DNA of 63,556 nt, the filler included, from Psammoneis japonica (lineage: Eukaryota), in assembly GCA_008632985.1 (NCBI GenBank). It is 7 parts of 7 records of this genome, joined end to end, with 100 filler letters (N's around TTAATTAATTAA, not from the genome) between each part and the next. Parts side by side here need not be neighbours in the genome. Positions count along the whole stretch, not along the records: positions 1 to 9,613 come from QPGO01000531.1; positions 9,714 to 19,447 come from QPGO01000532.1; positions 19,548 to 29,110 come from QPGO01000533.1; positions 29,211 to 38,937 come from QPGO01000534.1; positions 39,038 to 48,324 come from QPGO01000535.1; positions 48,425 to 57,546 come from QPGO01000536.1; positions 57,647 to 63,556 come from QPGO01000558.1. One strand, given 5' to 3'. Shown piece after piece: positions 1,969 through 63,556 of this stretch (position 1 is its first letter; the number at the start of each line of letters is the position of its first letter). A program made the position numbers and the translations under genes. The notes beneath the pieces were generated by a model that searched no databases, was not told the DNA's origin, and was given only the letters and a program-made list of their open reading frames with translations.

Positions 1969-3701
1969 GGTGACAATGTTCAGTACCACTTTTGCGAATT
2001 TTCGATTGTAAGTGCTGTCCGACAACTTCCGGTCAATAATTGAGAGTCACGCGGTCACAGATCTCGATAGAATGGTTATGGACTCGAAAGCGGTTTCACG
2101 TAGCAGTCGTAAGACATGTGCGTGAGGTTCATTATTTGTCGTATAAGCCTGCACGTGACCTGCAAATATGATTATTTAACAACGAGACATGAAACATTTA
2201 TGCTAAGAGAGCATCTCGTTTTGTCAGGAACAGATATTCTTGATTTGAAATGTCTACAAATATAAAGAATGCTGCATGTCTATACATTTAATAAAAATAT
2301 CGCAATTGTCTTACTTAAAGATAACTGATCATGGCTGGCATTTTCAAGTAGCCACAAAGACTTATTGTTTTTCGCTCTTAATTATTTATGAGTATATATG
2401 GTCATCGGACGTGTAATTATGTCTTTTTCTTTTAATCCTACCACAAGTCTACGAATAAAAATACTTATGCATTGTGTCCGCCTGGGCACGTGGAAATGCG
2501 TCACTCCATCAGGGCAGGGGCATGCACAGCGAAGCGCAGTCGGTCTGCACCACCATGCCGTTCTTGCACGACTGTTCTCTCCCAGAGAAAGACTCACCAG
2601 GCAAGTGAGCATGGAGCCAGTTTAAATCTGCTGTGAGTCCCAGCCATCAGTCTGGCTGCCCCCCCCCCTCAGCAGGAGTTGGCAAAAATCAAAGCACGCT
2701 CTGGCTCCGGGGACGGAGCCTTGCACCCCTGGGCTGCGGTGTTGATTTTTTGCCATGTGTCTTGTGTCACACACCAATGTTTTTGCATGACTTTGGCGGC
2801 ATTTGGTGGCATTTTGCAGTGCAATCGATGTCTGAGTGGCCCAGTGCTCAACAAGAACACTTCTGGAATTTTTTGTGTGCAGTGCCACCCTCTCCATGGT
2901 TGGCTGTTTTGATGCAGCAAACTCACCTGATTTTGGCAAATGGAAAATCCACACATCCAGGTTTCTTTGAGCAGTTTTGACGTCATGCATGCCAAGCTCA
3001 CTGCAAACATCATCGCCACACAGTTGTTGGAAACAAGCTGTGCATTTTCACATGCATGGCCGCAGCACGTGCTTGTGCCCAACGCAGCAAACAACAAAAA
3101 TGCCGCCCTTGCTGCCACAGGGCTTGTTTGTCTGTGTGTCAATGGCCACATTGTTGATCAAAGAGAGAGCATCATCACACAGTGACAAGACAGTGCTTGG
3201 CTCAATGGCTGTGTCAGATGTTTCTCGCACTGACACCTGCCATCATTCTGCATCCAGACATGCCAACAAGCCAACAAGCAGCGCAATTGCTGACTTTTCC
3301 ATTGTTCTCACATCTGCTGTGCATGTGAGTCCATGAGCAGCACATTTGCTTCCAATTTGGGCAGCCCACTCCTGTGCATCTGATGAGGCAGTGTGCGTGC
3401 GCTGTCTCAGCACCATCATGATGGTCATTTTTTCTTCTTCTTGTGACAGGCACAGAAAACAACATTTTGGTTTCGAAGCGAGGCAGCAGTTTCATCAACA
3501 ACACACCACGCAAAACTTTTGGCAAGGAGCAAAGGTGTGTCCCAGCCAGCATGTGTCTGATGCAGCAACACCGTCAGATCTGTCATGTTGAGCTGGTCCG
3601 TTGGTGTGCCACAACTCCCCACCAGTTTTTTTTTTTGCCAAAACGTGTTCATTGTTTTGTTGCTGGCGGCAACCCAGATTGTCCCTGCTTGTTTTTCACA
3701 A

Positions 3702-4488
3702 GCTCTAATTTGCACAGAAGCCATGTGTTGGTTTCTGTGCATTTGCGTAGATTTTGCACCAATCGCATCGTAGAGGTGTGTTGTTCGCCGGCCCTGACGA
3801 ACTCTTTCTCAGACACAGCACATTTTTCACGATGGCCGGCACATGACTGCCAGCTCGGCGGACACGTTTTGAGTTCTTTTCATGCAGATCTCACCGCAGA
3901 CGCACAGTGCTCAGATTCATTTGGCACAAATCTGCGCAGCTTTGTCACAGATGGCACAGAAACCCGTGGCAAGGTTCTGTGCCATCAAAAATGCTCAGGA
4001 CCTCACTGCGCATTTCTGTGCACAAGCAGGGACATGCAATCAATGCTTGTGTGACATCATTGCATGAAGTTGTGACATTGCAAAAATGTGAATGCTCTGT
4101 GTGCATCAGAGTGCAGAATGTGAAGAACCCATGTCCCTGCTCATTTTTCATGAGAGCTCTAATTTGCGCAGAAGCCATGTGTTGGTTTCTGTGCATTTGC
4201 ACAGATTTTGTGCCAATCGCATTGTAGAGGTGTGTTGTTCGCCGGCCCTGATGAAATCTTTCTCAGACATGACACATTTTTCACGATGGCCGGCACATGA
4301 CTGCCGGCTCGGTGGACACGTTTCGAGTTCTTTTCATGCAGATCTTGCCGCAGACATGCAGTGCTCAGATTTGTTTCGGCGCAAATCTGTGCAGCTTTGT
4401 CGCAGATGGCACAGAAGCCTGTGACAAGGTTCTGTGCCATCAAAAAATGCTCAGGACCTCACTGTGCATTTCTGTGCACAAGCAGGGA
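3702..4488. repeat. Direct duplication of ~330 bp (3702-4033 and 4156-4488)
   Basis: Both copies run GCTCTAATTTGC..CACAAGCAGGGACA. Differences are mostly transitions, often TG versus CA at the same site. Confidence 0.9.
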
Positions 4489-5199
4489 CACAGAGCGATG
4501 CACCTCTAAACATGCATGTTTCACACTTCAAAATTTCCACGACTTGTCGAAACGCGATGACAGTGGCGACCGCAAACGCAACGTGCTCCATCAACAGCTG
4601 CAAACTCACCATGATGCTGACATGCATCAATGTCGCGTAATTCATTTCACATGCACATGCCTTGCTGTGCTTTGACATTGATTGATCGCAGCAAAAACAG
4701 CTGAAATGTTCAATTTTTTGCCCATCGCTTTTCGACCGCATGAGTCAACAATGAGCCCGTTGCACTCGCGTGCGTCAATTGCACCGCACATGAGTTCACA
4801 AGAGATGAAATGTGGTTGATTGTTGTGGCTCTTTAAGGTGATGCTGTTGAGGAAACGGCGACCGTGGAGTCGCCATGGTGTGGTGGTTTCCGTGGTTTCC
4901 GGCTGCGGCATTTTAGCGGCGAGTTCGCAGTGCTGAAACTGAGTTGTGCTTGTCGAGTTTGCATGGCTGCCGCTTTGCACATCATGTGCCCACCATTCTC
5001 AGTGGCGGGGCCGCCAGCAAAAAAAAAATGGACGTTTGGCAGAAAAAACAACAACTCAGCCACAACTCGCTGCTTTGGAAGCCTCGTGCTTGTTGCTTTT
5101 TCAACCAACACAGCAGCTGGTGAATTTTTTGTTCCTCTGTTGTGTTTTTTGTTCTTCCTCTGTTGTGTTTTTGTTCATCTGTTGACTGGATGATGTGGC

Positions 5200-8100
5200 A
5201 CATGCAAGAATGTGTGCTTCATGATGGGGCAATGCAGGGAAAACCAAGCTGTGCAATGGACAGGAGCTCCAAACCACTGGTGACCAGATCTGTTGTCATC
5301 TCAACAAGCTTGCTCCAAACCCATGCTCAAATGGCTCAGAGCAAGCTGAGTGGCTGCCCTCCCTTGCATCTGTGCATTGTCTGCACCAGAGCCAAATTTG
5401 CCACCTGCAGCTGGACATGCTTGCCAGCAGCCAACCACCCTTCTCTGTGGAGTGGTGCAGTGCAGGCAGATTTTCAAGAAGTGCAGCCACCAACAGGTGC
5501 AGCTGTGCTGCAAACTTGGTCATGTGGAGCTTGTGCACAGAATTTTGCAGGCTCTTGTCACAACATGGAGTCCTGCCCAGGGCCAGCTGGCTGGCTTGAG
5601 GGTTGTCAAACAAAGAAGCAGCACCCACTGATGGATTCCATCTCCTCCAAGGAGGTTCAAGCCAGAGCTGCTTGTGGTTCTGCCTTCTCCTGTCTTTTTT
5701 GCAGCAGCCTGCTGGCCATGCATGTCATCTCCTCACACTCTGCAACAAGGCAGCAATGCTGGGCTTGATGATTTGTTGGCCACTCAGCACTTTGTGACCA
5801 GCTGGTCATTTTCAGGGAAATGCAAGAGCTTCTTTGTGGTGGCCATGCAGAACAGCTTGGCTTGGAGCTCAACAAAAACACCAGAGCAACTTTTGTGCAC
5901 TGTGGCTGCAGAGTGCTTTTGTTTGTGTTTGACTTGCTTGCTGTGCAAAAGAAGCCCTTTGGAGCTGGCCACCATCAACCTGACATCTCATCCTCTGTTG
6001 ATGCTGTTTTGTGGCAACTGTGCAAAACAGCTTGACTTGGAGCTCATTGACAAAAGCACTTGATGCAAGTGCTGCATGAGTTGCTTTCATGCATGCTTGA
6101 TTTGCCCCACAAAAACTTGGGCTCATTTGGCATGCTTCCCACTTTGTTGGCCAAGTTTTGTGAGCAACTTTTGCAATGATGGAGTCATGTGTGGAGAATC
6201 CTCTCTCCAAAAGGCAGCCACAAAAGACCCTCAGCTTGAAACGTGGCTGGTTGGAGCAAAAATCTGAAACACACACTGAGTCACAAGCACCACACATGCT
6301 TCAACCAGGCATGTCCAGTGCCAAACCTCAAACAACCAGAGAGGTTTGCACTTTTCCCACAACAGGCAAGAATCAAGCACTGTGGTCATCAAGGATCAAG
6401 GTGGACAAAAGTGATTTGCTGAGACTTCACTTTTTGGCAACAGGAAGAGCCAGAAATGCAGCCATGATGGAACAACAGTGTGCTGGGGTCCAAGCACATT
6501 GCTGCAAATCTGAGATTTGAGAAAGCTGCCATGATTTCTCAAGAGGTGGCATGAGAACAACACCTGGGAAAAGGAATGCCCTCCAAGGAAGAGCACCAGT
6601 GCTCATCACCAGCAAACACCAGAGAGAAAAAAGAAAAAACCAAAAAACCAAAACACACGTGTGGTGCCAGATTCTTGGTTGCTCCATGAGCACTGCAAAG
6701 GAGAGCCAATGTTTGGACCCACCTAAATTTTTGCTGACAGCTGAACTTTGTCTTTTGTGCAGCTTGGTGAGAAAATGACAAGACTTTTTGAAAGAAGTGC
6801 AAAACTGTGCCCACAAAACACTGCATGAAAGATGGCATTTTTGCCTCTGAAAGCACGCACAAAGTGCTTTTTCATTTCCTGGACAGTCTGAACCTGCACA
6901 AGTGCTGGAGTGTGCACTCCACATTGAGACAAAAGACATCATCTTCTTGGACCTGCCATGGCACAACTCTGGGTCAAAGCTTGCCAAGTGATCTGCAGGC
7001 ATTTTTGGACTTCAAAAAGACAAGGTGCAACGACACCAACGTGGGGTGGAGCAGTGGCTGCTCCCATGAAAGACAGAGAAACAAACTCTTCCTTTTGGGT
7101 GCTTTTTTTGCCTTGATTGAGTTCAAGAATCTGGTGCTGTGGAGGATCCAAGCAGCTGTGTTGATGAGATTTTGGAGGGTGGCAGCCATTGTGCTGCAGC
7201 ACAGATTTGCGCACCACTGCAATCATCCACAAAGAAGCTGTGCACCAGACAATGGGTGAGCAAGCAGAAAAAGCTCAGCCAACTTTCCTCAGAACACAAG
7301 CACCCCTTTGGCAGCACTCTGGGAAAGAGGGGCAGTCAACTCCAGCCAAATTCCAGCTCCAAGGAGGAGCAAGGCTGTGCTGCTTCAAACCATGTGCCCG
7401 CTGCTCTGCACTTGTTGGAAGCACCAACATGAAAGGAAGTTGGCCAGCTGCGCTGAGCAGGTTGGGTGTTGCCACTTGCAAGGAAAATCACAGTGGCAGC
7501 TCATTTGTGTGATGATTTTTTCACATGTTTTGTTCTTTCATTTGTTGCCACCACACCTCCAGCCTGTCCCAACGAGACCAGCCCCAACTTGGATCAGGCT
7601 GGAGGTGCACAGAAACCATTTTGCACAGACAAACCACCACTGAGACTTTCCTTGCATGAGGCAACACCCAGAGCATGCTGCAAATTACCACAGTCCACTC
7701 AGAGCAGGTGGTGCCAACCTTCTCTTTGCTGAAAAAGATCAGGGGGCAAAGTGCGGCTCTGTGGCCCAGCTGTCATGAGATGAGAAGGTGTGTCAAATGA
7801 GAGGCATGTGTGTGACACGCTGAACACAGAGGATTCACTTTAGAAACTGGGAGCTGGCAATTTTCCCAAATGCCCAACAAACATGTGCAGAAATTCCAGC
7901 AAATCTGTGCATCCAAGTTTGCACACCCAAATTTGTGGTGCAAGCCTGGCTCCCATGACCACGCAGCTCTTGTCTCCCAAAGTGCTCAAATTTGTGTGTC
8001 AGCTGAGGTTCCTCTCTGAGGCAGAAAAGCCATGCTGTTGGAGAGAATCTTGCTTTCCAGAGCAAGCAAGTTTGACACATCCTGTGCAAATTTTGCAGAA

Positions 8101-8560
8101 GCTGTTCTGACACCTGCACATGAAATTGTGCGCAAGGTCAAGCCTGTGTGAGAAGAAAACTCACAAAAAAACAAGTTTTTGCACAAACTTGGGTTTGTCA
8201 TCACAATTTCCCATTGGAGATTTTTGGGACAAATTTGGACATTTGGAAAACACTGCCACCACTTGCTGCATCTTTGGACCCAAGTGTGGGTGCTGCAATG
8301 CCCCCCCTTTTTGGAGTGCACTTTGGAGCCAGAGCAGCAGGTTTTGACTTTGTTCGACAGAGTTTGTGCAGGTGACATGCTGCGTTGCATTCAACAGACT
8401 TTTGGTGGTGGTTTCAGAAATCAGAAGAAGTGCTCAAAAGAGCCAAGCAAGCCAGCAGCCCAAAAATTCAGCACCTGTGTGAACTCCAAAGTCTCAGCCA
8501 CCCACTTGGGGCCTCGCATTGTGAAAAACAGAGCCCAGCACAAGATGCAGTCTCCTGAGG
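5200..8560 (-). mobile_element. Possible heavily decayed non-LTR retrotransposon
   Basis: An FVDD motif resembling the RT catalytic motif in ORF 7123-7317, plus block length and decay pattern. No intact ORF. Confidence 0.3.
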
Positions 8561-9068
8561 TGCAAAAAGAGCTGCGGTGCTTTGTTGGTCAGCTGCGATG
8601 GCATGTGGCTCTAAAGGCCACATTTTTTTGGCCAACCAGCTGGCTCACCCGGCCTGCTCCAGCTCCAGGTGATCTGCTTTTCATCATGCGAAAGGCCGAT
8701 TTTCTGTGCAGTTTGGCGCAATTGACTCCCTCAATTTTGATCGTTTTGAAAATCGAAAGGTGAGTGCACACCCAAAAACACATGCAAAGTGCACACTTGC
8801 CCTTCGATTTGGCAAAAAACGGATTTGGAAAAAGTCAATTGCGCCAAATGCACAAATTTCCAAATGATGGGAATCGAACCCGCTCGGAGCACCTGGAGCT
8901 GGAACAGGCCACCCAATGCATTGAAAATGTCAAAGTGGCAGTGGGACAATTTGTAGAAAAAAGGAACCAAAGGCCACAAAAAAGCTGTTTTCAAGGAACA
9001 TGTCCTTTTCTTGTGCCCAGATTTCAGTGAGCCACCATTTGACACCTGCCCACATGCCACCGCAAATT

Positions 9069-9069
<1 letters not shown>

Positions 9070-9131
<62 letters not shown>
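9070..9131. repeat. (CA)n microsatellite, ~31 units
   Basis: Directly visible. Confidence 0.97.
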
Positions 9132-9133
<2 letters not shown>

Positions 9134-9146
9134 GCTCCAACAAGGC

Positions 9147-9414
9147 TGCACATTTTGTTCATGGGAGTTGGTGAGTGGCCCACAAGCACAACATGCAACA
9201 ACAAACAGAGAGAGAGCGGCTGTTGATGATGAAAACACTCAAGAAGTTGGGGAACATGTTGCGTGTGCTCTGCTCCAGAAACCCACACAGCACATTTTGT
9301 TCATGGGAGTTGGTGAGTGGCCCACAAACACAACATGCAACAACACACAGAGAGAGTGGCTGTTGTTGATGAAAACACTCAAGAAGTTGGGGAGCATGTC
9401 GCGTGTGCTCTGCT
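9147..9414. repeat. Tandem duplication of ~125-145 bp
   Basis: GCACATTTTGTTCATGGGAGTTGGTGAGTGGCCCACAA..GCGTGTGCTCTGCT occurs at ~9147 and ~9290. Confidence 0.9.
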
Positions 9415-9613
9415 TCTTGGTTGTTTGAGAGGCGCAGACCAAAAATCCACACGTTGTTGGAGCTGACAGAGCAGGCACACACAAGCTGTTTGCTGCCCCC
9501 GCCAGACTGCAATGGTGTCTTCCCAGCTGTTTGTGGTGCCAATGAGACCAAACAAGCAACAATTGAACAAAAAGCTGCCGCTCAAGCCACTTCAAGAAAA
9601 GAAGTGTGATGCA

Positions 9614-48424: not shown

Positions 48425-48546
48425 ACGGAATCGGCGGCTTTCCGCTTCTTCATGGTCGTTTTGAGATTTGTCGGTCCACCAACATTTCGTAGTTTCGTTT
48501 CTGCAGATTTCGTCACCTCGCACAACATGCGGGAGTGACATTGCTG

Positions 48547-49417
48547 TGCCCCATGCATGTGCCAGGCGCTGAAAAAGAAGATGTGTTGCGACTTTGTCGT
48601 TGTGAAAATTGTGAGCTAGTTTAGAGCAGAGAAAATGGGATCGTGCGAATGGGGAATCTTGCCAAATCCCTGTTCGTTCGCATTTGGATCGCATCAAATC
48701 GATCGTGCGTTCGCATTGTGGATCGTGCGAATCAAGCCATCACGCGCNNNNNNNNNNNNNNNNNNNNNNNNNNNNNNNNNNNNNNNNNNNNNNNNNNNNN
48801 NNNNNNNNNNNNNNNNNNNNNNNNNNNNNNNNNNNNNNNNNNNNNNNNNNNNNNNNNNNNNNNNNNNNNNNNNNNNNNNNNNNNNNNNNNNNNNNNNNNN
48901 NNNNNNNNNNNNNNNNNNNNTGCATGCAGACAAAAGGTTATTTTGTCACGCCCTTTGTGACATTTAAAGGCTGCAACACGTCGCCGTGATGCGCTGGCTC
49001 TTGTCAGCAGCTGTGTGTTGCACTCCTCCCCATGTGTCACGCGACCCACGCTCGCGTGTGCTGACGCTGCACGGTTTTGGCAGAACAGCGTGGGTGCATG
49101 CGAAGGAACACACAGAACTGCACAGAGTTTTACGCGCTCGACAGTGACCAACGTTGCTGCAGACAACTCCCACTCGGGTTTCGAACCCCTGGCCTCCTGC
49201 CTGGTGGTTGCGATGCACCACTCCGCTGTGAATTCACAACGCAGCATGCATGCAGACAAAAGGACATTTTGTCACGCCCTTTGTGACATTTAAAGGCTGC
49301 AACACGTCGCCGTGATGCATTGGCTCTTGTTGGCAGCTGTGTGTTGCAGCTGCGTTGCCATGCACAAGAGGCTCATGCACGGTCTCGCCGTGTTGTCCAG
49401 CAGCGAGGCATGCTGCA
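48547..49417 (-). mobile_element. Probable solo or rearranged LTR of the Gypsy family at 56223-57546 (contains a gap and an insertion)
   Basis: 48547-48747 matches 56223-56420, and 49351-49417 matches 56588-56653. Confidence 0.6.
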
Positions 49418-49534
49418 CAAGAAAGTCATGTGGGTGGGCCGCTCCATCCAGGAACCAAACCACCAGCACTGGATCTTCTGCAATGTTGCCGGGGCGCAGC
49501 TGCTTGATCGCAGCAGAGGCTGCAATGACCGCTG

Positions 49535-50160
49535 TCATGTGGCCAGCCTCGATGGCCGCCGCCATGCTTGGCACTTGAACGCTGAAACAACCGGGCAGCC
49601 CAGCTCATCAAGCCTCCCCCCCTCACATGACAAATGGAAGCGGGGAAAAGGAAATGGGAAAGGGGAGCACGGACAACACAACACTGCCAAGCACAAAAAT
49701 CAATGTCAGGACAGCATGGAAATGACACACCCACAGACAAACTGACAAAAAATGACACCACCAAACAAAAAATTGTGCGTCAATTTGACAGGGTTCGGGC
49801 AGTGGACAGCAAGCAAAGGCCAAAAGGTGAGGCTGAAGGGAAAATGGGAAATGGGAAATGGGTGAAGTGCAGAGCTCAGCTCAAGCACAAAACAAACTTT
49901 GGCGAATGTTTGCAAAACTGAAAGAGAGAAACAAAATGCAGAAATGAGGTGCGCTGTGAAAGACACAGATGGAGCATGCAGCAAAGCAAGGAAGAAACTT
50001 CAGAGAGGAGCTGGCTGGTCTGAAACAACAGAAGAGTCATCGTTGGCTTCAAGGGCGGCGTTGTTCAGCTGCTGTTTGTTGGCATTGCCAAACATTTCCT
50101 GGGCTTGACGACAGAAAACCAGAGCTTCATGGCACTCTTGACTGAGTGGCTCAGGAATGA
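49535..50160. repeat. ~620-bp dispersed repeat; second copy at 55188-55808
   Basis: Near-identical CTCGATGGCCGCCGCCATGCTTGGCAC..GAGTGGCTCAGGAATGA. Confidence 0.9.
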
Positions 50161-50258
50161 CATCATCTGGGCAGATGAAAAGCCCGAAGTGGTGGAGGTG
50201 ATTGAGGCCGGGGTGGGAACGGCAGCACCGATGTTCTGGTGTCCTGGATCAGCTGGGA

Positions 50259-50569
50259 GACGGGTTCCAGCCCCAGGTGGGACTTTTTGTGACACTGGTT
50301 CTGCAGAATTCTGCGTGCAAGCTCCGCAGTGAAATTGTCAAGCAATGCATGTGCCCTTTGCAGTGTGTCCGGGCACACTCTTCAGTCACCAAAGAACACA
50401 CCCAGTGCATTTTCATTGTCACAGATGTGCACAACAGAAAGCATTTGGCTTCACAAAACAGGCAGTGTGGAACAATTTTTTACAACAGAACACGCAGAAA
50501 TGTGCACGCGAAACATGCGACGGATGACAAAAACGATTGTGTCGCAGCTCAGCAGTGTGAGGTCCCACC
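50259..50569. mobile_element. Shorter, truncated member of the GAC..GTC MITE family
   Basis: Left TIR GACGGGTTCCAGCCCCAGGTGGGAC. The right end stops at GAGGTCCCACC. Confidence 0.8.
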
Positions 50570-51496
50570 AGTGATCACATGGGCAATCGCTGCAATTGCC
50601 AGTGTTCGTTGGAGCCCTTGCATGAAAATTGGCTGAGGTGGCCAACCCAGCGGGCTGAAGGACAATTCTGAGAAGCCCGACAGCTGCAGAAGNNNNNNNN
50701 NNNNNNNNNNNNNNNNNNNNNNNNNNNNNNNNNNNNNNNNNNNNNNNNNNNNNNNNNNNNNNNNNNNNNNNNNNNNNNNNNNNNNNNNNNNNNNNNNNNN
50801 NNNNNNNNNNNNNNNNNNNNNNNNNNNNNNNNNNNNNNNNNNNNNNNNNNNNNNNNNNNNNNNNNNNNNNNNNNNNNNNNNNNNNNNNNNNNNNNNNNNN
50901 NNNNNNNNNNNNNNNNNNNNNNNNNNNNNNNNNNNNNNNNNNNNNNNNNNNNNNNNNNNNNNNNNNNNNNNNNNNNNNNNNNNNNNNNNNNNNNNNNNNN
51001 NNNNNNNNNNNNNNNNNNNNNNNNNNNNNNNNNNNNNNNNNNNNNNNNNNNNNNNNNNNNNNNNNNNNNNNNNNNNNNNNNNNNNNNNNNNNNNNNNNNN
51101 NNNNNNNNNNNNNNNNNNNNNNNNNNNNNNNNNNNNNNNNNNNNNNNNNNNNNNNNNNNNNNNNNNNNNNNNNNNNNNTTGGGGTTGGGTCAGGCAGAAC
51201 CAAGTGCTCTCGCGACGTCAACTCGATCGAGCTCCGCTCCGCTCCACTCTCTCTCGTTGAACTTGTCGCATCGAGCACTTCTGGGTTGGGGTCAGGGAAA
51301 AGGAAAAAAGGAAAAAAGAAAAAAGGGAAAAAAAGGGAAAAAGAAACAAAGGGAAACAAGGGAAAAAGGGAGGGGGGGACAGAGGGAAACAAGGGAAACA
51401 AGGGGAAAAAAGGAACAAAGCAAAACAAGAAAAAAATTTGGAGACCAAGGTTCGAGTCCTTGTCTCTGCCTTTTTTTACTTTTTTTTACCATTTTC

Positions 51497-54400
51497 ACAT
51501 TTGGTGCTGTTGATGAGGCTCGCTTTGCCAACTGGGGATCAAGAGGGCACGGAGGATGCGAGGACCTTGTTGCTGATCTCAACTTGAGCACAGTTGCCAA
51601 TGAGCTTGGGCGGGGCACGGCGATTGCGAATGTTGTCTTCAAGCGTGTTGACAAATTCTTGTCGGTTTTGACTCCGCACACATCCGTGACAAGGGATTTG
51701 GTGCCAACAAAGAGCTGGGCACTGGCGCAGCTGGAGTCAACAGCGGGGTGTCAGAGTGCACCATGTTGGGCAACGGGTTCGTTGCATCAGTGGACGTTGA
51801 GAGCCGGGTTGGGCAACTTGTGCACCTTTTTCAAGTGCGTGCTGTGCGTCATGCAATCAAAAGTGTGGTGGACAGTGTCCTTTGGAAGAAAGCCAAAACA
51901 AGGGTGCAGAGACTCAAAGTTGGGGTCCTTTGGATTGATCTCATGCTCATGGCATTTGCAGAAGAAATTGGACGTCGGGAGCAGGTGGTCATCAAGGACG
52001 GAGTCCACAAGCATGGCATTGTTGATGACATGATGGTGGTGATGGTTGCCGAACTTGTCAAAGAGGTTGGCAGTCGGTCGGCCTGGAGGTCAGATGCAGC
52101 ATCATGCTGCGTCTCATTGTCGGCGATTCTGGTGGTTGAGGGACAGATGGGTCCCAAGTGTTGTCACCTGTGAGGATGACGTGTGGCAAGGTGTCCCATT
52201 TGGCGTCAGTGTGTGGGAGCATGGCAATGTGCAGAAGGCCGCCTTTGATGTCAATGGGGATGACACATCCATCAATGTGGTGATGCACTGCAGACCACTG
52301 GGGACCTTGATGGGCCGATCATTGATGTCGTGTTTGTGCCGCTCAAGTTGACCGCAAGAGTGCATGGTCTTGCCCTCACCAGTGCAGGCATGCTGGTGAA
52401 GAGTGGTGATGATGGGGCCACGTTGGGTGTGGATGACACCACCCGCAGTGACAATGGGAACATCGACCAGCTGGTGATTGTCGACACCTTTGACATCAAC
52501 CTGGTGACCAGCGTGAGCAATGACATGAACATCGTCACCGGGCAACACCGCTGTTTGCACCGCAATTCACGTGGGTGCCTTTGCAAGTGGATTTGTGGGT
52601 CGAGGCAGAGCAGACGACATTGTGGTTGTTGACATGATGGTGTTCATGACCATTGATCTCAATGTCAGTGTCATCAAGCTTCTCGTCAGAGCAGACAGAA
52701 GGCACAGATCCGGGGGGTTTCTCTCCAGAATGGGCGGAAGGAGGCAGCTCAGGTGCAAGGAGACGTTGCAAGTCACTGGGTGGCAGAGGCTTGCAGCTGG
52801 TGAGATGAGCCAGAATGGGGTCAGCAACGCAGCATGGCATGGTGCGGAGCACAAGGAGCCGTCTTGGGGGCAAACGTGCTGTCGTGCTGTGCCATGGCAG
52901 AAAGCAGGAGTCCATGGCACTGCTCACAAGAAAGGCCCTTGCCATTCTGTGCGCGAAACTGATTGGCCTGATTCTTTGCCAAGCGCAGTTCTTCGACAGG
53001 GTGAACAGAGTTCTCAAGCATGACACGTTTCTGTCCAGCCAAGAAATGGTCCGTGCCCAGGATGAGAGCTTGCTTGAGCATCAGAGGAGCCAACATGTTC
53101 ACAAAAGAGTGCCTTGCCTTTGTCACTCTGCAAGATGCATTCGAGCACAATGACCATGTGCCCCCGTTGTTCATCGATCAGGGCCTTGTCCTCAGCTGCA
53201 GAGGGCTTGTGCTTCGGATCAAGAATGCGGTCAACTTCGTGGGAGCGGGCCTGTGCAATGATGGAGGTGTGCCACGTGTGCCACTGTTTGTCAGACTTGA
53301 GAAGCGCAAAGGTGAGTGGGTTGCGTTTGATGCCTTGTTTCAAGTCACGCATGGGGTCATGTGGTTTGGGTGGCAACAAGCCAGGAATGGGGGCAGAAGG
53401 TGCTGTGCCCATGGAGAGGGACGCTGCGTGCTCAGGACTGAGACGACAGTTGGTGAACTCCTCGTGTGTGAACAATTGGGGGTTGTTGCTGACATTGGTG
53501 CTGCCGCGCACTTTTGCCATGTGCAGGCTAATCAGCGCAGCTCTCTGTGCTTTGCAGCCATGTGGCAAGGGCGACGCGTTCCAGACGCAGGTGGGAATCC
53601 GTGTGACATTGGGCCCGCAGACTTCTGCGTGCGAGCTCCGTAGTAAAATTGTGCGGCAATTAAAATGTCAATGATCGCCAACAGAAAATGAGGCAATTTT
53701 GCGAACGCACAAACTCGCACATGATTGAAGTGCATCATTTTTTACTTGGCCAGTTACATTCTTCAGACATTGAAGAATGTAACTGGCGCATTGTTGTTTC
53801 TATATAAATTTGTCATGTAAAACGTCTGGGGTTTCGCAAAACAGCGAGTCTGGACAATTTTTTTTAAACATCACACGTGGAAATCTACGTGCGAAACATG
53901 CGACGGATGACAAAAATCATTGTTGTCACACGTCAGCACTGCGAGCTCCCACCTGGGGCTGGAACGCGTCGGGCATTTGATTGGCACCGTCGTTGCAAAC
54001 AAGGGCACCCAGTTGCGCAGGAGCAAAAGAAAAGAGGTCCTGATGCGAGTCAGTTCTGTCAATGTTGAGAGTGGAGTGCAGTGGACTGTCTGCGGCTTGA
54101 CCTCAGAACAGCACCCAGGATGTGCTCGAGGCCATCAATTTGTTGCTGTCTGGTCAGAACCATGTTGCAACTGGGTGAGTGTCGGGATTGGCCAGAGTGG
54201 GAAGGTGAGCTTGAAACAACTTGAAACTTGGCTTGAGTCTTGACTTGAAGTCTTGAGCCATCTTGCAAGTCAGAAGCCACCGTGCCATGACATCCCGTTT
54301 GCCTGCAGAGTTGTGCCGGCACGTCCGAACCCGCAGCTGGCGACAATTTGGGTTGCTTCAGAGCAGAGCAATGGGTTAAAAACCCCTGCTGACAAGCCAG

Positions 54401-55174
54401 CTGGAGGTGGACAAGACCTCCGAACCGTTCTCATTTTGTGTTGGTTGGATGACCCGATCAGGCCGGCCAAATTTGGCACTGTGGAGGGACGAACAAACAC
54501 GGGAGCTGCGCCCTTGCCCCAACGTTCGTGGACCTTGCAGGACTGCAGAAGACCAGCAATCCGGCACAGATGCAAGATGGTGGACTTGGCGTGTGCAAAG
54601 CAGGGCCAGAGTCAAGGGCTCATGTCGTGCGCACATGAGCACAAGCAGATGGATTGGTCTGTCTGCCAACCAGGGCAGAATCTGCTGCGGGGAATCCGGA
54701 ATCTCAGATTTCTGAGAATTCGGGAATTCCTGACCAAACAAATGTCCGTTGAACAAACACATGCAATGATGGGAGGTGTTGGACAAAACCAAATGTGTGG
54801 ATTTAATCCAGCATCCAGCAGCGAAGAAGGCAGACATGTGCTTCCACCGCCAGCTGTGCACGTCATCAAAAAATTTCTCGATGACAATGACGAACGCTCA
54901 GTGGACAAGAATGAGCAAGACTGTTGATCTGACAGAAGTTGAAGATGACTGGGTGGAAGAAAACAGTGACTCCTCGCTGCTGTCTGAGTGGCAGATGAGT
55001 CTCCATGTGGAGACTGTTGCAGGAGCCGAAAGACTGGTGTCGTGATGTCGGCACTGCTGTTGTTGTTCTTGTGAGCCATGTGGCTTGAAAGCAATTTGCA
55101 TTGCACGGTGTGCCCGGAGCTGAGAGCACACATGACTGTGTGCGACAAACTGAAATCTTGCTCAAATCCTGTCA
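51497..55174 (-). mobile_element. Diatom Copia-type LTR retrotransposon (LTR/leader, gag, protease, part of integrase), decayed
   Basis: TGACAGGATTTGA start at 55174. gag MVLTRQQQIDG and LKQGIKRNP..LKSDKQWHTW. pol motifs VDVKGVDNHQ, WDTLPHVILTGD..WDP, PALNVH and AQLFVGTKSLVTDV, with integrase following protease as in Copia. Confidence 0.9.
53573..53970. mobile_element. ~398-bp MITE (GAC..GTC family, second subfamily), TSD GGGC
   Basis: Complete TIRs, GGGC on both flanks, and an internal 16-bp perfect hairpin. Confidence 0.92.
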
Positions 55175-55809
55175 GCAATGACGACCATCATGTGGCCTTC
55201 CTCGATGGCCGCCGCCATGCTTGGCACTTGAACGCTGAAACAACCGGGCAGCCCAGCTCATCAAGCCTCCCCTCACATGACAAATGGGAGCGGGGAAAAG
55301 GAAATGGGAAAGGGGAGCACGGACAACATGACACTGCCAAGCACAAAAATCAATGTCAGGTCAGCATGGAAATGACACACCCACAGACAAACTGACAAAA
55401 AAATGACACCACCAAACAAAAAAATTGTGCGTCAATTTGACTGGGTTTGGCAGCAGACAGCGGGCAAAGGCCAAAAGGTGAGGCTGAAGGGAAAATGGGA
55501 AATGGGAAATGGGTGAAGCACAGAACTCAGCTCAAGTGCAAAACAAACTTTGGCGAATGTTTGCAAAACTGAAAGAGAGAAACAAAATGCAGAAATGAGG
55601 TGCGCTGTGAAAGATGCAGATGGAGAATGCAGCAAAGCAAGGAAGAATCTTCAGAGAGGAGCTGACTGGTCTGAAACAACAGAAGAGTTGTCGTTGGCTT
55701 CAAGGACGGCATTGTTGAGCTGCTGTTTGTTGGCATCACCAAACATTTCCTGGGCTTGACAGAAAACCAGAGCTTCGTGGCACTCTTGACTGAGTGGCTC
55801 AGGAATGAT

Positions 55810-56222
55810 TCAAGCCAAAAATGATCGCAAAGACATGGGCCATTTGGACTCGGAGTGAGGCAGTGTGGGCTGAACATCCTGCAAGAAGCTGACACCTGTG
55901 CCCAACTGAAGCTGCACCCACGCCACTGCAATGCATGACAGAACATGAGGCTGACCACAGCTGCGCCAGTGTCGGAGAAACTGCGCGCATTGGGATGTGC
56001 CCTGCTGCTCCACATCCAATGAACGAAAGCCACCTCCACCAAGAGCACATGGTCCAAACAGTGCATCATGTTTCGCACTGTGATTGCACCCACAGTTTGT
56101 GAAAATCGTGCACATTGCTTTCCGCTGGATCTCCAACAGCTCCTTTGGCAAGAAGCAAGTGTTCTGAAGATTGCAAGACACGGAAGACAAGTGGCGCACA
56201 AAGCAATGTGCCCAAGCTTCAT
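55810..56222 (-). mobile_element. Fragment of a non-LTR retrotransposon ORF (region downstream of RT)
   Basis: LFGP..LGGGGF..L..EQ..G..Q..FLRHWR..W.Q...G....L.D....LPH.E.KW..SLR.FL pattern, recalled from diatom LINE-like elements. Confidence 0.6.
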
Positions 56223-57546
56223 TGCCCCATGCATGCACCAGGCGCTGAAAAGAAGATGTGTTGCGACTTTGTCGTTGTGAAAATTGTGAGCTAGTTTAGA
56301 GCAGAGAAAGTGGGATCGTGCGAATGGGGAATCTTGCCAAATCCCCATTCGTTTGCATTTGGATCGCATCAAATCGATCGTGCGTTCGCATTGTGGATCG
56401 TGCGAACCAAGCCATCATGCGCTGTGCACGAGTGATGTCATCGTGTGGAATCACGCCACCATCGTGGGCCAGACGACGGGCTGGTGTGCTTCACACGGAT
56501 GCTCTCTTGGCATCCTTCTGGAATTGCCCAAGACCCAGAGCCACGCCCTCCTGTGGTCATGCTTCCCAGGTGCGTGTTGACAACACTGCGTTGCCACGTG
56601 CAAGAGGCTCATGCACGGTCTCGCCGTGTTGTCCAGCAGCGAGGCATGCTGCACACTCCCCATGATCAGGGCCGTCAAGTGACAGGATGTCTTGCTGGTG
56701 ATGGGGTGCAATCTGCCGTAGATTGTGCGCATCCATCAGCGCTCTGTTCTGGATGCACAACGTGCCATTGTCACACACACGGACAACTCTGGTGGGTCCT
56801 GCATGGCTGTCAGAACCGCATTTAGAGGATTGTTCCTGTTTGACAAGCACCAATTGCCCGACGGCACATTGATGCTCCTTGCGTTTCTGATGTTCATGCT
56901 TGTTGTTCAAGTGGACAAGCTTCTGCTTTCTGGTTTCTATGTGCTTCCACTTGGCACGATGGGCAACAGATGAAACCGCATTGCGTCCGAAGACCAATTG
57001 CATGGGACTCACACGCGTGGTCGCATGTGCCGCAGCTCCAATGGCGAAGGCCACTGCAGAGAGGATGCCACTCCATGGGTCATCTTCGTCCAGTTCCACA
57101 CCCTGTGCTGAAAAGGAACATGCATGTTGCCAAGTGTCTGGTGTGCACGTTCCACTGTGGCATTCGCCTGTGGATTCTGTTTGCTTGTGGGTTTCTTCAA
57201 AATCCCACAGTCATTTTTAATCATCTGGCTGAATTCTGCCATAAATTCTGTCCCACGGTCATAAACCACCTGGGTTGGCCACGGATGTCTGCATGGCCAC
57301 GTTTGTTCCACGACGTTTGCTGCGACGTCTGCGCGTTTCGTAGACACTTCTTCAATCTCGAACCATCGGTTGCTGGGTCAATCATTGTGACTGCCCACAA
57401 TTGCAAAGTGTCCTTTCCGCGTCTTTGAATTTTATGTGGCCCTGTCACATCCATGCATGGAGTCTCCCATGGAATTGTCTCTGCGACCTTTTCTGGTGGC
57501 TTCCCACAACGCTGCGTTCGGCGTTTTGTCTTCTGGCATCGATCGC
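56223..57546 (-). mobile_element. Gypsy-type LTR retrotransposon 3' end (integrase, PPT, ~430-bp 3' LTR at 56223-56653)
   Basis: Integrase motifs TMIDPAT, YDRGTEF, NPQAN..VER.HQTLGNM, SPMQLVFGR and a GPY/F-like tail. A purine tract GGGGAG precedes a TG..CA-bounded segment repeated at 48547-49417. Confidence 0.85.
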
Positions 57547-62335: not shown

Positions 62336-62539
62336 GATAGCTAAAATAAGTCATTAGCATGTGCAATTTCATGAGACATTCCGGTAAGGATTAGAGTAGT
62401 TTTTCTTTGAATAGAGTAGCAGAGAACTAGAGAGAAAATCTCTAAAGTCGGTTTGTCAAACAACGACGAGAATGCAAAACACACGAATCTCCGACAAATA
62501 CAAATTCACTTCTAGTCTGAAAAGAAAAGGATGGTGCGT

Positions 62540-63556
62540 TTCATGACAAAAATGATTGCTGCAGTTTTTAGCTTCTTTTTCTTAGTTGCTGGATGGCCTT
62601 CTGAGTTCCATGATTAAATGAGCTGTCCCACTGGCTCTTCAGTTGGTTGCCCTGCCCCAGTGAATCATCAAGACAGCACATGCATCTGGGGTCAGAAAGT
62701 GGAGTTCTCCCCATTGCCAAATTGTGCTGAACCCCATGACTTGGACAGTTGGTCACGCAACCAACTGGTTCTTCAATTGGTTGCCCCACCACAATGGATC
62801 AAAACATGGCACATGCCTTTGTCCATTGCTGCAGTGTTTGCAAATGCTGCAGCAGCTCCATCATTGGCGCCACTGCCACTGGAGCCCTGGCCTTTTTCTT
62901 GAGGCACTTTTTCCTGCTCCTGCTCCATGAGCAGGTGTGCTGACAACAATGCAAACTTGACCATCGCCCCTGCCTTTCCAACTCCTGTGCACACAAAAGT
63001 CAATTGTGTCTCCCAAATGATTCTGGGCAAACTTAAAATCTGTGGCTGTCCACAACATCCTGGGTTTTGTGCTTGATCACCACACCAAATGTGCAAGCTC
63101 CTTCTTGTCCAAGCCAGCAATGTCGCTGCACACTTGTGACAACCAGCAACAAGATGAAAAAAAACACAAAATGGCAAAGGACTGGCATGCTGCTCTGCCT
63201 TCAACTGCACTTTTGTCCCAGCTGACAACATCAAACAGCTTGACTTGGAGCTTTCTCCTTGGATCTGTTGTGCGCACGCTGTGCACATTCCTTCTTTTTC
63301 CACAAAACAGCCAAGTGCATGGCATCATTGGCATGACACCTCCTCCCAGCTTCTGCTTGCTTGCCCCATCTGGAAGCACTGAGAGAGGCTCTGCTGTGAT
63401 GCTGCTGGCCACATTGTCAGATGGCAGAATCACAAATGTTTTCCCATCTTGCTGCTGGCATCAGAAGAAGTGGTTTTTCTGACCTTCAAAGCTGTGTCAC
63501 TTGCCACACCCTGCCTCATGAGTGTGAGAGCTGCTGTGCATCCACACAGGCACTGC
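62540..63556. mobile_element. Start of another TpA- and CpG-depleted repeat block
   Basis: TA is lost abruptly ~200 bp after the carrier stop codon. Cys/His-rich spurious ORFs. Confidence 0.6.

What the first reader, a model, noticed from the sequence alone, without database searches (positions are those of the whole stretch)
2470..63556. Candidate repeat-targeted TpA->TpG/CpA (A-to-G) hypermutation system, the reverse of fungal RIP
Seen: six of the seven scaffolds contain kb-scale transposon-rich blocks (about 2.5-9.6k, 14.1-19.4k, 31.3-38.1k, 41.1-43.9k, 48.4-57.5k, 62.5-63.6k) where TA is almost absent and TG/CA is abundant. Adjacent host genes and intergenic DNA keep plenty of TA. Paralogs differ by TA versus TG or TA versus CA, retroelement proteins have lost Tyr, and inner telomere units read TTGGGG/TCAGGG. 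Established: fungal RIP makes CpA->TpA and 5mC decay makes CpG->TpG/CpA; neither removes TpA. Inference: a chromatin- or homology-guided process mutates the A of TpA to G on both strands and inactivates TEs. Candidate mechanisms are a DNA-acting TadA/ADAT-type adenine deaminase, or error-prone patch repair by a polymerase-eta-like enzyme (known WA->WG signature) in methylated DNA. I know of no described mechanism of this kind, but I cannot search the literature, and no responsible enzyme is seen in this window.
Basis: partly seen in the sequence, partly recalled or inferred. Interest (0 to 1): 0.95.

Follow-up and report, generated by a model that had tools for sequence, protein, structure and literature searches.

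The report
Repeat DNA stripped of TA steps
In this microalga-like genome nearly every TA step in repeated DNA has been rewritten to TG or CA while neighbouring genes are untouched, which marks a targeted A-to-G mutation process reported only once before, in an unrelated alga.

Summary
Six of the seven scaffolds carry kb-scale blocks with TpA observed/expected of 0.02-0.13, against 0.50-0.73 in host DNA. TA-free runs reach 2,042 bp, against a mean host spacing of 24 bp. Block edges are sharp to a few bases.

Three polarised tests show that TA was the ancestral state:
- The 16 innermost telomere units are all TTGGGG or TCAGGG, and 120 TTAGGG-type units follow them.
- A 1.17-kb direct-repeat pair has 30 TG-versus-CA discordant sites, where CpG decay predicts about 2.
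- An integrase remnant keeps 0 of 11 conserved tyrosines, and 8 of them are now Cys or His. All 80 related elements fetched from metagenomes have normal TA.

The process acts on both strands without strand runs. It runs at about 150 times the background rate and about 9 times faster than CpG decay. It prefers an A followed by a pyrimidine.

The same signature was measured de novo in Bigelowiella natans in a 2026 preprint. This window's one informative marker sits nearest diatoms, and its genes lack introns, so it is probably a second lineage. The enzyme is unknown; a TadA/ADAT-type adenine deaminase is the best guess.

The parts
2470..9613 (.). TA-depleted block on scaffold 1. It holds 15 TA in 7,144 bp, with TA O/E 0.03 and CpG O/E 0.32. 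The left edge is sharp at 2466/2470.
14660..19447 (.). TA-depleted block on scaffold 2, with TA O/E 0.04. A partly depleted margin runs from about 14056.
31490..37579 (.). TA-depleted block on scaffold 4 (TA O/E 0.13, CpG O/E 0.77). It runs into a 447-N gap just before the telomere.
31404..32577 (+). Left copy of a 1.17-kb direct repeat (LTR-like, starting TGACAGG). It is 87.6% identical to the right copy.
35602..36767 (+). Right copy of the direct repeat. Against the left copy it has 30 TG/CA discordant sites, 7 TA-versus-TG/CA sites and 28 CG-versus-TG/CA sites.
38030..38131 (+). The 16 innermost telomere units, all converted: 12 TTGGGG-type and 4 TCAGGG.
38132..38937 (+). Canonical TTAGGG telomere tract of 120 units with one odd unit at 38586. 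Homopolymer lengths are noisy.
41900..43600 (.). TA-depleted block on scaffold 5 (TA O/E 0.13). The margins 41000-41900 and 43600-44000 are partly depleted.
48425..57546 (.). TA-depleted block covering all of scaffold 6 (TA O/E 0.07). Every covered bin is multi-copy in run X1.
53562..53972 (-). MITE-like element with terminal inverted repeats that still keeps TAs (13 TA in window 53501-54000). It has the highest summed depth in X1. A related copy lies at 35030-35442.
56689..57544 (-). Retroelement integrase remnant with frameshifts, cut off by the scaffold end. None of 11 conserved Tyr positions is kept.
62616..63556 (.). TA-depleted block on scaffold 7, with 1 TA in 941 bp and CpG O/E 0.10. 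The left edge is sharp at 62615.
32705..33094 (+). Copy of a roughly 390-bp MITE-like family with terminal inverted repeats. Other copies lie at 33941-34330 and 41508-41898. The copies differ mainly at YR steps.

Best explanation
Repeated DNA in this genome (retroelement remnants, LTR-like repeats, other multi-copy sequence and the telomere-proximal repeats beside them) undergoes a locally confined hypermutation. It converts 5'-TpA-3' to TpG or CpA, which is an A:T to G:C change of the adenine on one strand or the other. Genes and intergenic DNA a few bases away are spared.

Shown here:
- The direction is TA to TG/CA.
- The two strands are used about equally, site by site, without strand runs.
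- The rate in one repeat pair is about 150 times the background transition rate and about 9 times the CpG decay rate.
- The process reaches saturation.
- The adenine is hit more readily when a pyrimidine follows it (3' T >= C > G > A).
- CpG to TpG/CpA decay runs alongside but can be separated.

Inferred:
- The process works in place on chromosomal DNA. Two copies of one direct repeat and adjacent duplicates diverged by it, and telomerase-made units were converted.
- Its effect is to inactivate mobile elements (Tyr to Cys/His, Leu to Pro, Ile to Thr).

Most likely chemistry (inferred, about 45% on its own): enzymatic deamination of adenine to hypoxanthine in DNA by a TadA/ADAT2-type deaminase recruited to silenced repeats. 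Replication reads hypoxanthine as G. Such enzymes naturally take an A preceded by U and followed by C.

The same signature has been measured in real time in Bigelowiella natans, so this is most likely the same kind of system in a second lineage.
For: Direction of change:
1. The 16 innermost telomere units are all TTGGGG or TCAGGG, and 120 TTAGGG-type units follow them.
2. In the 1.17-kb direct-repeat pair the YR-step pairs are CA/TG 30, CG/CG 49, CG/mutated 28, TA/TA 3 and TA/mutated 7. CpG decay predicts about 2.0 discordant sites. That leaves about 28 from an ancestral TA, about 66 ancestral TA sites, and a per-copy conversion of 0.90.
3. Over all 12 pairs there are 98 discordant sites. CpG predicts about 8.5 (107 squared over 8 x 168, my arithmetic). 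Four control pairs outside the blocks have 1.
4. In the integrase remnant, of 11 columns where 60% or more of the relatives have Tyr, 0 keep Tyr, 4 are Cys (TGT/TGC), 4 are His (CAT) and 3 are other residues. There are also two Leu to Pro (CCA), three Ile to Thr (ACA) and one Leu to Ser (TCA).
5. All 80 related retroelement loci fetched from metagenomes have TA O/E of 0.52-1.11.

Specificity: non-YR transitions are 18 of 597 sites and transversions 20 of 597 in the repeat pair. A/G differences behind A or G number 4.

Both strands: block TG O/E is about equal to CA O/E. Runs of TG or CA outcomes number 20 against 17.8 expected and 18 against 16.3 expected.

Context: TA survival relative to host is TTAA 0.39, CTAA 0.28, CTAG 0.18, CTAC 0.10, GTAA 0.07, ATAA 0.07, ATAG 0.03, GTAC 0.026, ATAC 0.016 and ATAT 0.011. 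An additive model fitted on the four palindromic contexts predicts all six mixed contexts. In 4 of 4 asymmetric contexts the product of editing an A followed by a pyrimidine is the larger excess.

Confinement: the edges are at 2466/2470 and 62615.

Repeat status: 7,374 contigs of run X1 lie on scaffold 6, with summed depth of 218-127,184 against about 60-75 for single contigs.

Precedent: in B. natans mutation-accumulation lines, 230 of 231 mutations in two viral regions are A>G or T>C, and all of these fall on TpA. There are 124 TpA-depleted clusters genome-wide, and an ADAT2 homologue is proposed (sections read).

TadA context: TadA and ABEmax prefer a UACG(A) motif (passages of PMC8052359).
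Against: - No enzyme is seen. No whole genome is held, so no deaminase, methylase or polymerase can be tied to the signature.
- Majority-rule polarisation in the three-copy MITE-like family gave 18 'TG>TA' against 6 'TA>TG'. I read this as convergence under a saturating directional process, but taken alone it would also fit TG to TA in that young family.
- Only one element family has an outgroup.
- The context analysis uses host DNA as a stand-in for the composition of the repeats before mutation.
- Edges this sharp would also be expected if elements were mutated before they inserted. The case for action in place rests on the direct-repeat pair being two copies made in place, and on the telomere units.
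- Variant units TTGGGG and TCAGGG also occur in proximal human telomeres (recalled), so the telomere evidence is not unique to this process.
- A MITE-like element with the highest copy depth still keeps many TAs. A purely copy-number-driven trigger does not predict that.
- Run X1 is probably the sample the assembly came from, so it is not an independent platform check.
- The lineage rests on one marker protein. A second marker was uninformative.
Confidence: 0.7

Rival explanations
1. The change is a by-product of silent chromatin rather than direct adenine deamination. In this reading a TpA-directed base modification, or error-prone repair or translesion synthesis in methylated repeats (polymerase-eta type), raises A to G errors.
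For: TA loss and CpG loss occur in the same blocks, as expected if both follow the silenced, methylated state. TpA and CpG are both self-complementary steps hit independently on either strand. Block edges are sharp, like the borders of a chromatin domain.
Against: Polymerase eta's signature (recalled) covers WA, meaning both AA and TA. Here A/G differences behind A or G number 4, against about 63 TA events, in the repeat pair. Several TA-free windows keep CpG O/E of 1.0-1.2, so TA loss does not need CpG decay. I know of no TpA-specific adenine modification in eukaryotes (recalled; the 6mA motifs I know are ApT). None turned up in the searches.
Confidence: 0.17
2. The elements were edited before they integrated, as RNA (ADAR-like) or as cDNA (like APOBEC but on adenine), and mutated copies were then inserted.
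For: Block edges coincide with what look like element ends. At least one block holds a retroelement.
Against: Editing of one replication strand predicts a strong TG-versus-CA bias. The blocks instead have TG O/E about equal to CA O/E, and the outcomes mix site by site. Two copies of one direct repeat, and adjacent duplicates, differ at TA-derived sites. Telomerase-made repeats are converted. In B. natans a single-copy integrated virus mutates in place.
Confidence: 0.04
3. The repeats were TA-poor from the start, or selection removed TA. No directed mutation is involved.
For: Majority-rule polarisation in one MITE-like family points from TG to TA.
Against: All 80 related retroelement loci have TA O/E of 0.52-1.11. 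Conserved Tyr, Leu and Ile codons were destroyed, which selection on the element would not favour. Unrelated sequences, including telomere units, share the loss.
Confidence: 0.03
4. The pattern is a sequencing, base-calling or assembly artefact.
For: Homopolymer lengths in the telomere tract are noisy, so the underlying reads carry errors. The only run that holds the sequence is probably the source sample.
Against: Of the X1 contigs laid on scaffold 6, 1,681 match at 99% or better. The changes respect codon logic, repeat history and block edges. Host DNA on the same scaffolds is normal.
Confidence: 0.02

Closest known systems
TpA hypermutation of integrated viral and other foreign DNA in Bigelowiella natans (Mettrop et al., bioRxiv 10.64898/2026.01.13.699255; abstract, Results and Discussion read)
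   Same: Changes are exclusively A>G/T>C at TpA, giving TpG or CpA according to strand. They are confined to particular regions while the rest of the genome is normal. TpA-depleted, CpA+TpG-enriched clusters are enriched for reverse transcriptase and DDE transposase domains, and most carry no annotation.
   Different: There the rate was measured de novo, about 6e-7 per site per generation, in a single-copy giant-virus insert and a virophage insert that still hold many TpA (rho 0.45). Here the targets are multi-copy repeats at saturation (O/E 0.02-0.13), plus telomere-proximal units. CpG decay runs in parallel, and a 3'-pyrimidine preference is seen. The words context, trinucleotide, telomer and diatom do not occur in the preprint's main text. 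The host here appears to be a different lineage: its marker protein is nearest diatoms, its genes lack introns, and no protein 70% or more identical is in a library that should hold B. natans.
Repeat-induced point mutation (RIP) of fungi
   Same: A genome defence that riddles repeated DNA with transitions at one dinucleotide, on both strands, and leaves a dinucleotide footprint confined to the repeats.
   Different: The chemistry and footprint are opposite. RIP changes C to T, mainly at CpA, and creates an excess of TpA (abstract of PMC2621366, listed). Here TpA is erased and CpA/TpG accumulate. RIP's duplication sensing, its premeiotic timing and its RID-type methyltransferase-like enzyme could not be tested.
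5-methylcytosine deamination (CpG to TpG/CpA decay) in methylated repeats
   Same: It is also present in these blocks: 107 CG-versus-TG/CA sites across 12 pairs, and CpG O/E down to 0.00-0.22. Like the TA process, it hits a self-complementary YR step independently on either strand and ends in TG/CA.
   Different: It cannot remove TpA. It is about 9 times slower per site than the TA change in the repeat pair, and it is absent from some TA-free windows.
TadA/ADAT2-ADAT3 tRNA adenosine deaminases and TadA-derived adenine base editors
   Same: They carry out A to I, which is read as G. The natural target A34 follows U33. TadA and ABEmax prefer UACG(A) (PMC8052359 passages). That matches the 5'-T and 3'-pyrimidine preference found here.
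   Different: Natural enzymes act on tRNA loops. Activity on chromosomal DNA is engineered, or is claimed for a few ADAT2 proteins (as cited in the preprint). No such gene could be examined here.
ADAR hyper-editing of repeat-derived double-stranded RNA, and APOBEC3 editing of retroelement cDNA
   Same: Deaminase-based attack on repeats and retroelements. ADAR favours a U before the edited A (as stated in the preprint).
   Different: These act on RNA or on one cDNA strand and so leave strand-biased changes. Here both strands are used, unbiased and in place. ADAR's preferred 3' neighbour is G (recalled); here a 3' G is disfavoured.

Membership tests
TpA hypermutation of foreign or repeated DNA (B. 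natans type) | Changes are A:T to G:C transitions restricted to TpA | tested here: met
   Telomere units. Discordant TG/CA sites number 30, against about 2 expected from CpG. Tyr to Cys/His at 8 of 11 conserved columns, with 0 kept. Only 4 A/G differences lie behind A or G.
TpA hypermutation of foreign or repeated DNA (B. natans type) | Either strand is hit, giving both TpG and CpA | tested here: met
   TG O/E is about equal to CA O/E in every block. There are no strand runs.
TpA hypermutation of foreign or repeated DNA (B. natans type) | Confined to particular regions of foreign or mobile origin, with the rest of the genome normal | tested here: met
   Sharp edges. Host TA O/E is 0.50-0.73. 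Scaffold 6 is multi-copy. An integrase remnant is present.
TpA hypermutation of foreign or repeated DNA (B. natans type) | Elevated de novo rate measured across generations | not testable with these tools
   This needs mutation-accumulation or pedigree sequencing. Only a relative rate from repeat divergence is available, about 150 times background.
Fungal RIP | C to T at CpA (or another CpN) in duplicated DNA, producing excess TpA and depleted CpA/TpG | tested here: not met
   The footprint is the opposite: TpA O/E 0.02-0.13 and CpA/TpG O/E 1.5-2.2.
5mC-driven CpG decay | Loss of CpG to TpG/CpA | tested here: met
   107 CG-versus-TG/CA sites and CpG O/E of 0.10-0.77. This explains only the CpG part and not the TpA loss.
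Polymerase-eta type WA to WG mutagenesis | A to G at both TA and AA | tested here: not met
   RA-versus-RG differences number 4, against about 63 TA-derived events, in the repeat pair. The motif definition is recalled.
Pre-integration RNA or cDNA editing (ADAR/APOBEC-like) | Strand-biased changes acquired before insertion | tested here: not met
   There is no strand bias. Copies of one direct repeat diverged by this change. Telomere units are converted.
TadA/ADAT-type adenine deaminase as the agent | A deaminase of this family is present, nuclear and active on DNA | not testable with these tools
   No genome is held. The only support is a sequence-context match to UAC.

The most novel reading that the evidence does not exclude
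A dedicated adenine-editing genome defence, the A-to-G counterpart of fungal RIP, may be shared by distant branches of the SAR supergroup (a diatom-like stramenopile here, a chlorarachniophyte rhizarian in the preprint). It would recognise silenced repeats and integrated viruses and deaminate the A of 5'-T-A-pyrimidine in chromosomal DNA on either strand. Together with CpG decay it would drive every self-complementary pyrimidine-purine step to TG/CA. The enzyme would be a natural adenine deaminase acting on double-stranded chromosomal DNA, something known so far only from laboratory evolution of TadA.
Probability: 0.45. Interest if true: 0.9.

Novelty: new member of a known kind. Interest (0 to 1): 0.8.

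Why it matters
A mutation process that erases one dinucleotide from repeats at more than 100 times background would be a second, chemically opposite, RIP-like genome defence. It has been seen in real time only in one alga, in one preprint. Finding it at saturation in the transposons and subtelomere of what looks like a diatom relative has four consequences:
- The process may be widespread in marine protists.
- It shapes repeat evolution and base composition.
- It produces long stop-poor false ORFs that gene callers will annotate.
- It gives a sharper signature (TA followed by a pyrimidine, both strands, no strand runs) with which to hunt for the enzyme.

A natural enzyme that edits A to G in chromosomal DNA would also interest the base-editing field.

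Tried and rejected
- **Whole genome.** None is held, so I could make no genome-wide scan and no search for deaminase genes.
- **Pfam on block ORFs.** Of 150 ORFs of 90 aa or more and 129 further ORFs, 279 of the 367 ORFs of 55 aa or more listed, only one gave a meaningful hit. It is a weak integrase hit (E 7e-4, below the curated cut-off). Four other sub-threshold hits look like chance. Whole-frame translation was not accepted because of stop codons.
- **tblastn with relatives.** 54 relatives' polyproteins found only 56689-57544, plus a weak hit at 8386-8727. The other blocks remain unclassified repeats.
- **Majority-rule polarisation.** In a three-copy family it gave the opposite direction. 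I rejected it as a method because independent convergence under a saturating process fools parsimony.
- **Strand-run test.** Negative.
- **Lineage.** A bacterial-type LonC-like gene, a phosphatase with only diplonemid relatives at 31-33% identity and two Atlas look-ups were uninformative. Only the mitochondrial phosphate carrier pointed anywhere, to diatoms at 50-60% identity.
- **Metagenome scans.** One alignment was too loose to search with. The single protein found nothing. A tighter alignment worked, but none of its 80 loci is TA-depleted.
- **Sequencing runs.** No RNA holder is listed. Runs X2 and X3 laid only one contig each.
- **Earlier notes of this scan.** Nothing on this genome, and nothing that bears on it.
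- **RNA genes.** No tRNA and no Rfam family in the window.
- **Literature.** Searches found no description of TpA-specific hypermutation other than the B. natans preprint, and none for diatoms. PMC9258296 and PMC7884421 proved irrelevant when their passages were read.
- **Not used.** Structure prediction and complex prediction, because no candidate protein was at hand.

Full report
**What the window is.** The 63,556 bases are seven scaffolds joined by N44-TTAATTAATTAA-N44 spacers. Their bounds are 1-9613, 9714-19447, 19548-29110, 29211-38937, 39038-48324, 48425-57546 and 57647-63556. No whole genome is held.

The host genes are eukaryotic and sit in long uninterrupted ORFs:
- a purple-acid-phosphatase-like protein of 821 aa
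- a LonC-like protease
- a HECT_2 protein
- a Rab GTPase
- a 2Fe-2S ferredoxin-domain protein
- a mitochondrial phosphate carrier
- a weak Sen54-like match

Scaffold 4 ends in a TTAGGG telomere.

**Checking the observation.** TG and CA rise to 1.4-2.3 there, while host DNA stays at TA 0.3-0.9. Per block, TA O/E is 0.03, 0.04, 0.13, 0.13, 0.07 and 0.02; seven host segments give 0.50-0.73. The blocks hold 108 TA in 29,287 bp, and host DNA holds 1,206 in 28,799 bp. Host TA spacing averages 23.8 bp with a maximum of 206. The blocks contain TA-free runs of 2,042, 1,810, 1,488, 1,190, 1,161 and 1,083 bp, which chance cannot produce.

The edges are abrupt. AT-rich, TA-dense DNA runs to 2466 and the TA-free state starts at 2470; the same happens at 62615.

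The gain in TG+CA (frequency 0.19-0.24 against 0.14-0.16) and in GC matches the loss of TA plus CpG. CpG is depleted in the same blocks (O/E 0.10-0.77, and 0.00-0.22 over 5001-8500). Several TA-free windows keep CpG at 1.0-1.2, so the TA loss is not a side effect of CpG decay.

**Direction of change, test 1: the telomere.** Telomerase makes TTAGGG. The 16 units next to the subtelomeric gap are all TTGGGG-type (12) or TCAGGG (4). Then 120 TTAGGG-type units follow from 38132, with one odd unit at 38586. Here the starting state is known, so the changes are TA to TG and TA to CA. One caveat, from memory: the same variant units occur in proximal human telomeres.

**Direction of change, test 2: repeats that diverged after duplication.** Self-comparison found paralogous pairs inside the blocks. 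Across 12 pairs, aligned pyrimidine-purine steps show three classes of difference:
- 98 TG-versus-CA discordant sites
- 47 TA-versus-TG/CA sites
- 107 CG-versus-TG/CA sites

Four control pairs in normal DNA show 1 discordant site. The 12 pairs include three comparisons within one three-copy family, so they are not all independent.

A TG/CA discordance needs an ancestor that was TA or CG and was then hit on different strands in the two copies. In the 1.17-kb direct-repeat pair (31404-32577 and 35602-36767, 87.6% identical, LTR-like) there are 30 discordant sites. The counts CG/CG 49 and CG/mutated 28 predict only about 2.0 discordant sites from CpG. So about 28 come from TA. This implies about 66 ancestral TA sites, close to host density, and a per-copy conversion of 0.90.

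Non-YR transitions are 18 of 597 sites and transversions 20 of 597. Per site, TA is therefore lost about 150 times faster than background transitions and about 9 times faster than CpG. This assumes that CpG sites are equally mutable.

A/G differences behind A or G number 4 in this pair. The change is therefore TpA-specific and not WA-specific.

**Direction of change, test 3: a protein with outgroups.** Pfam found almost nothing in 279 block ORFs. One weak integrase hit (57012-57377, minus strand) has 1,550 homologues in the protein representative library, with a best E-value of 2e-28. Against 150 of them, the two conserved Tyr columns read His (CAT) and Cys (TGT) in the window. Conserved Leu, Ile and Ile read Pro (CCA), Thr (ACA) and Thr (ACA).

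I fetched 80 related retroelement loci from metagenomes. All have TA O/E of 0.52-1.11, so the family is not TA-poor by nature. Their polyproteins match the window only at 56689-57544 (E 2e-82), plus a weak hit at 8386-8727.

Over 235 columns where 60% or more of at least 15 relatives agree, the window differs at 92. Of the 11 Tyr columns none keeps Tyr: 4 are Cys, 4 are His, and 3 are other residues, which lie where frameshifted matches overlap.

In passing, 15 of the 150 library homologues also carry Cys or His at both Tyr columns and average 0.4% Tyr, against 3.5% in the rest. Their origin is unknown.

**A polarisation method that misled.** Majority rule in a three-copy MITE-like family gave 18 'TG>TA' against 6 'TA>TG'. 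Under a saturating directional process two copies often converge, so the copy that still has TA looks derived. I therefore set this method aside. It remains the one result that, taken alone, points the other way.

**How the process behaves.**
- Both strands are used. TG O/E is about equal to CA O/E in every block.
- At the known-TA sites of the repeat pair, TG and CA outcomes alternate at random: 20 runs against 17.8 expected, and 18 against 16.3. The changes are therefore many single-site events, not processive bursts along one strand.
- Flanking bases matter. TA survival relative to host is TTAA 0.39, CTAA 0.28, CTAG 0.18, CTAC 0.10, GTAA 0.07, ATAA 0.07, ATAG 0.03, GTAC 0.026, ATAC 0.016 and ATAT 0.011.
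- Taking minus the log of survival, the four palindromic contexts give per-flank terms of A 2.25, G 1.8, C 0.85 and T 0.48. Sums of these terms predict all six mixed contexts within about 0.35 (my arithmetic).
- Because TA is self-complementary, survival alone cannot say whether a purine two bases before the A or a pyrimidine after it is what counts.
- Product counts can say. In 4 of 4 asymmetric contexts the excess product is the one made by editing an A that is followed by a pyrimidine: ACAA/TTGT +2.19 against ATGA +0.29; TTGC +1.93 against GTGA +1.14; CTGT +1.86 against ATGG +0.95; CTGC +4.17 against GTGG +2.50, per 1,000 tetranucleotides.
- These proportions agree with the survival model if the 3' base sets the rate as T >= C > G > A. 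The caveat is that host DNA stands in for the repeats' composition before mutation.

**Are the blocks repeats?** Run X1 holds 82% of the sampled words of scaffold 1. It laid 7,374 short contigs on scaffold 6, of which 1,681 are 99% or more alike. Summed depth per bin is 218-127,184, against about 60-75 for individual contigs. Of the places that differ, 111 of 129 are transitions. Scaffold 6 is therefore multi-copy throughout. The other blocks were not tested.

X1 is probably the assembly's own sample, so this shows that the raw data hold the TA-free sequence but is not an independent platform.

The bin with the highest depth is a roughly 400-bp MITE-like element with terminal inverted repeats (53562-53972). 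It still keeps 13 TAs in its 500-bp window. Between it and its copy at 35030-35442, TA-derived differences dominate: 10 TA-versus-TG/CA sites and about 6 discordant sites, against 4 CpG-type differences, 3 other transitions and 3 transversions. This suggests that the process is recent or continuing, and that age or length, rather than copy number alone, decides how far an element is mutated.

**In place or before insertion?** Three observations argue for action on chromosomal DNA: the two copies of one direct repeat diverged by this change, adjacent duplicates (3671-4034 and 4126-4490) did too, and telomere units were converted. Lack of strand bias argues against editing of a single RNA or cDNA strand. 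The very sharp edges mean the process does not spread into flanking unique DNA, which fits targeting by element identity or by a sharply bounded chromatin state. Which of the two applies is untested.

**What is known.** Full-text searches found one description of this signature: Mettrop et al., bioRxiv 2026, on Bigelowiella natans. I read its abstract, Results and Discussion and searched its main text for context terms.

- In 15 mutation-accumulation lines, two integrated viral regions mutate at about 6e-7 per site per generation, roughly 1,000 times the genome rate.
- 230 of the 231 mutations there are A>G or T>C, and all of these fall on TpA.
[quoted passage not shown] Low-TpA gene models are enriched in reverse transcriptase and DDE transposase domains.
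- An ADAT2 homologue is proposed as the agent.
- The preprint's main text does not contain the words context, trinucleotide, telomer or diatom.

**Is this window B. natans?** Probably not.
- The mitochondrial phosphate carrier has 589 homologues at E <= 1e-20 and none above 69% identity. Every cluster that carries an organism name is a diatom or a diatom-bearing dinoflagellate: Fragilaria, Nitzschia, Seminavis, Cyclotella, Pseudo-nitzschia, Thalassiosira, Ditylum, Conticribra, Skeletonema and an entry beginning 'Kry', at 49-60% identity.
- That library draws on MMETSP, EukProt and JGI, which from memory include B. natans. Its own protein should therefore have appeared at about 100% identity.
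- The genes here lack introns, whereas B. natans genes are, from memory, intron-rich.
- A second marker was uninformative.

I put about 90% on a different lineage, most likely a diatom or a close relative.

**Mechanism.** The best-supported chemistry is deamination of adenine to hypoxanthine in DNA. Hypoxanthine pairs like G.
- TadA/ADAT enzymes take an A preceded by U. TadA and its base-editor derivatives prefer UACG(A) (PMC8052359 passages). This fits a 5' T and a 3' pyrimidine.
- ADAR prefers a 3' G (recalled), which fits worse.
- Polymerase eta should also hit AA (recalled), and AA is not hit.
- A TpA-specific base modification followed by miscoding cannot be excluded.

No deaminase, methylase or polymerase gene lies in the window.

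**Verdict.** The phenomenon is real and striking, and it is not an artefact. It is the same kind of process as the one just reported in B. natans, apparently in a second, distant lineage. It adds saturation-level targets (transposons and the subtelomere), evidence for action in place, independence from CpG decay, and a 3'-pyrimidine preference that can be tested directly on the published mutations.

Noticed in passing
window 32977-34851 (+) and the blocks in general: TA-free DNA has no TAA or TAG stops, so long ORFs arise in all frames. One example is a 624-aa ORF with no Pfam hit. One search listed 162 ORFs of 90 aa or more in the blocks. Gene callers would annotate many false genes here. The many unannotated low-TpA gene models in the B. 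natans preprint may be partly of this kind.
   Followed up: partly
window 5001-8500 and 62501-63556: CpG is almost gone as well (O/E 0.00-0.22), so nearly every pyrimidine-purine step is TG or CA. The two losses can be separated elsewhere, but it is open whether one machinery drives both.
   Followed up: partly
window 53562-53972 and 35030-35442; also 32705-33094, 33941-34330, 41508-41898: Two related MITE-like families of about 400 bp share terminal inverted repeats. One copy sits in the deepest bin of run X1 (summed depth 127,184), yet it keeps many TAs inside an otherwise TA-free block.
   Followed up: partly
proteins P0269, P0275, P0290, P0294, P0297, P0309, P0314, P0332, P0344, P0345, P0371, P0375, P0392, P0397, P0398: 15 of the 150 best integrase homologues in the public representative library have Cys or His at both conserved Tyr columns and average 0.4% Tyr overall. 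Tyr-stripped copies therefore exist in public data beyond this window. Their organisms and DNA could not be looked up.
   Followed up: partly
window 12754-13303: A 129-bp tandem repeat (4.3 copies, 98% matches) in a GC-rich ORF coincides with a 556-bp TA-free run in otherwise normal DNA. This could be chance, if the repeat unit simply lacks TA, or it could be a small target of the same process.
   Followed up: no
window 25112-27812 (+): A LonC-like protease gene of bacterial type (AAA_32, LonB lid and Lon_C domains) lies on a eukaryotic scaffold. Its relatives are mostly metagenomic and bacterial, at up to 65% identity. This may be gene transfer. A single N at 26338 breaks the frame.
   Followed up: no
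window 38132-38937: The telomere tract has very noisy G-run and T-run lengths (G runs exceeding ten bases), which points to homopolymer errors in the reads behind the assembly.
   Followed up: no
window 9070-9131: A perfect (CA)31 microsatellite lies inside the TA-free block of scaffold 1. It is probably native, because a converted (TA)n tract should give a mixture of TG and CA.
   Followed up: no
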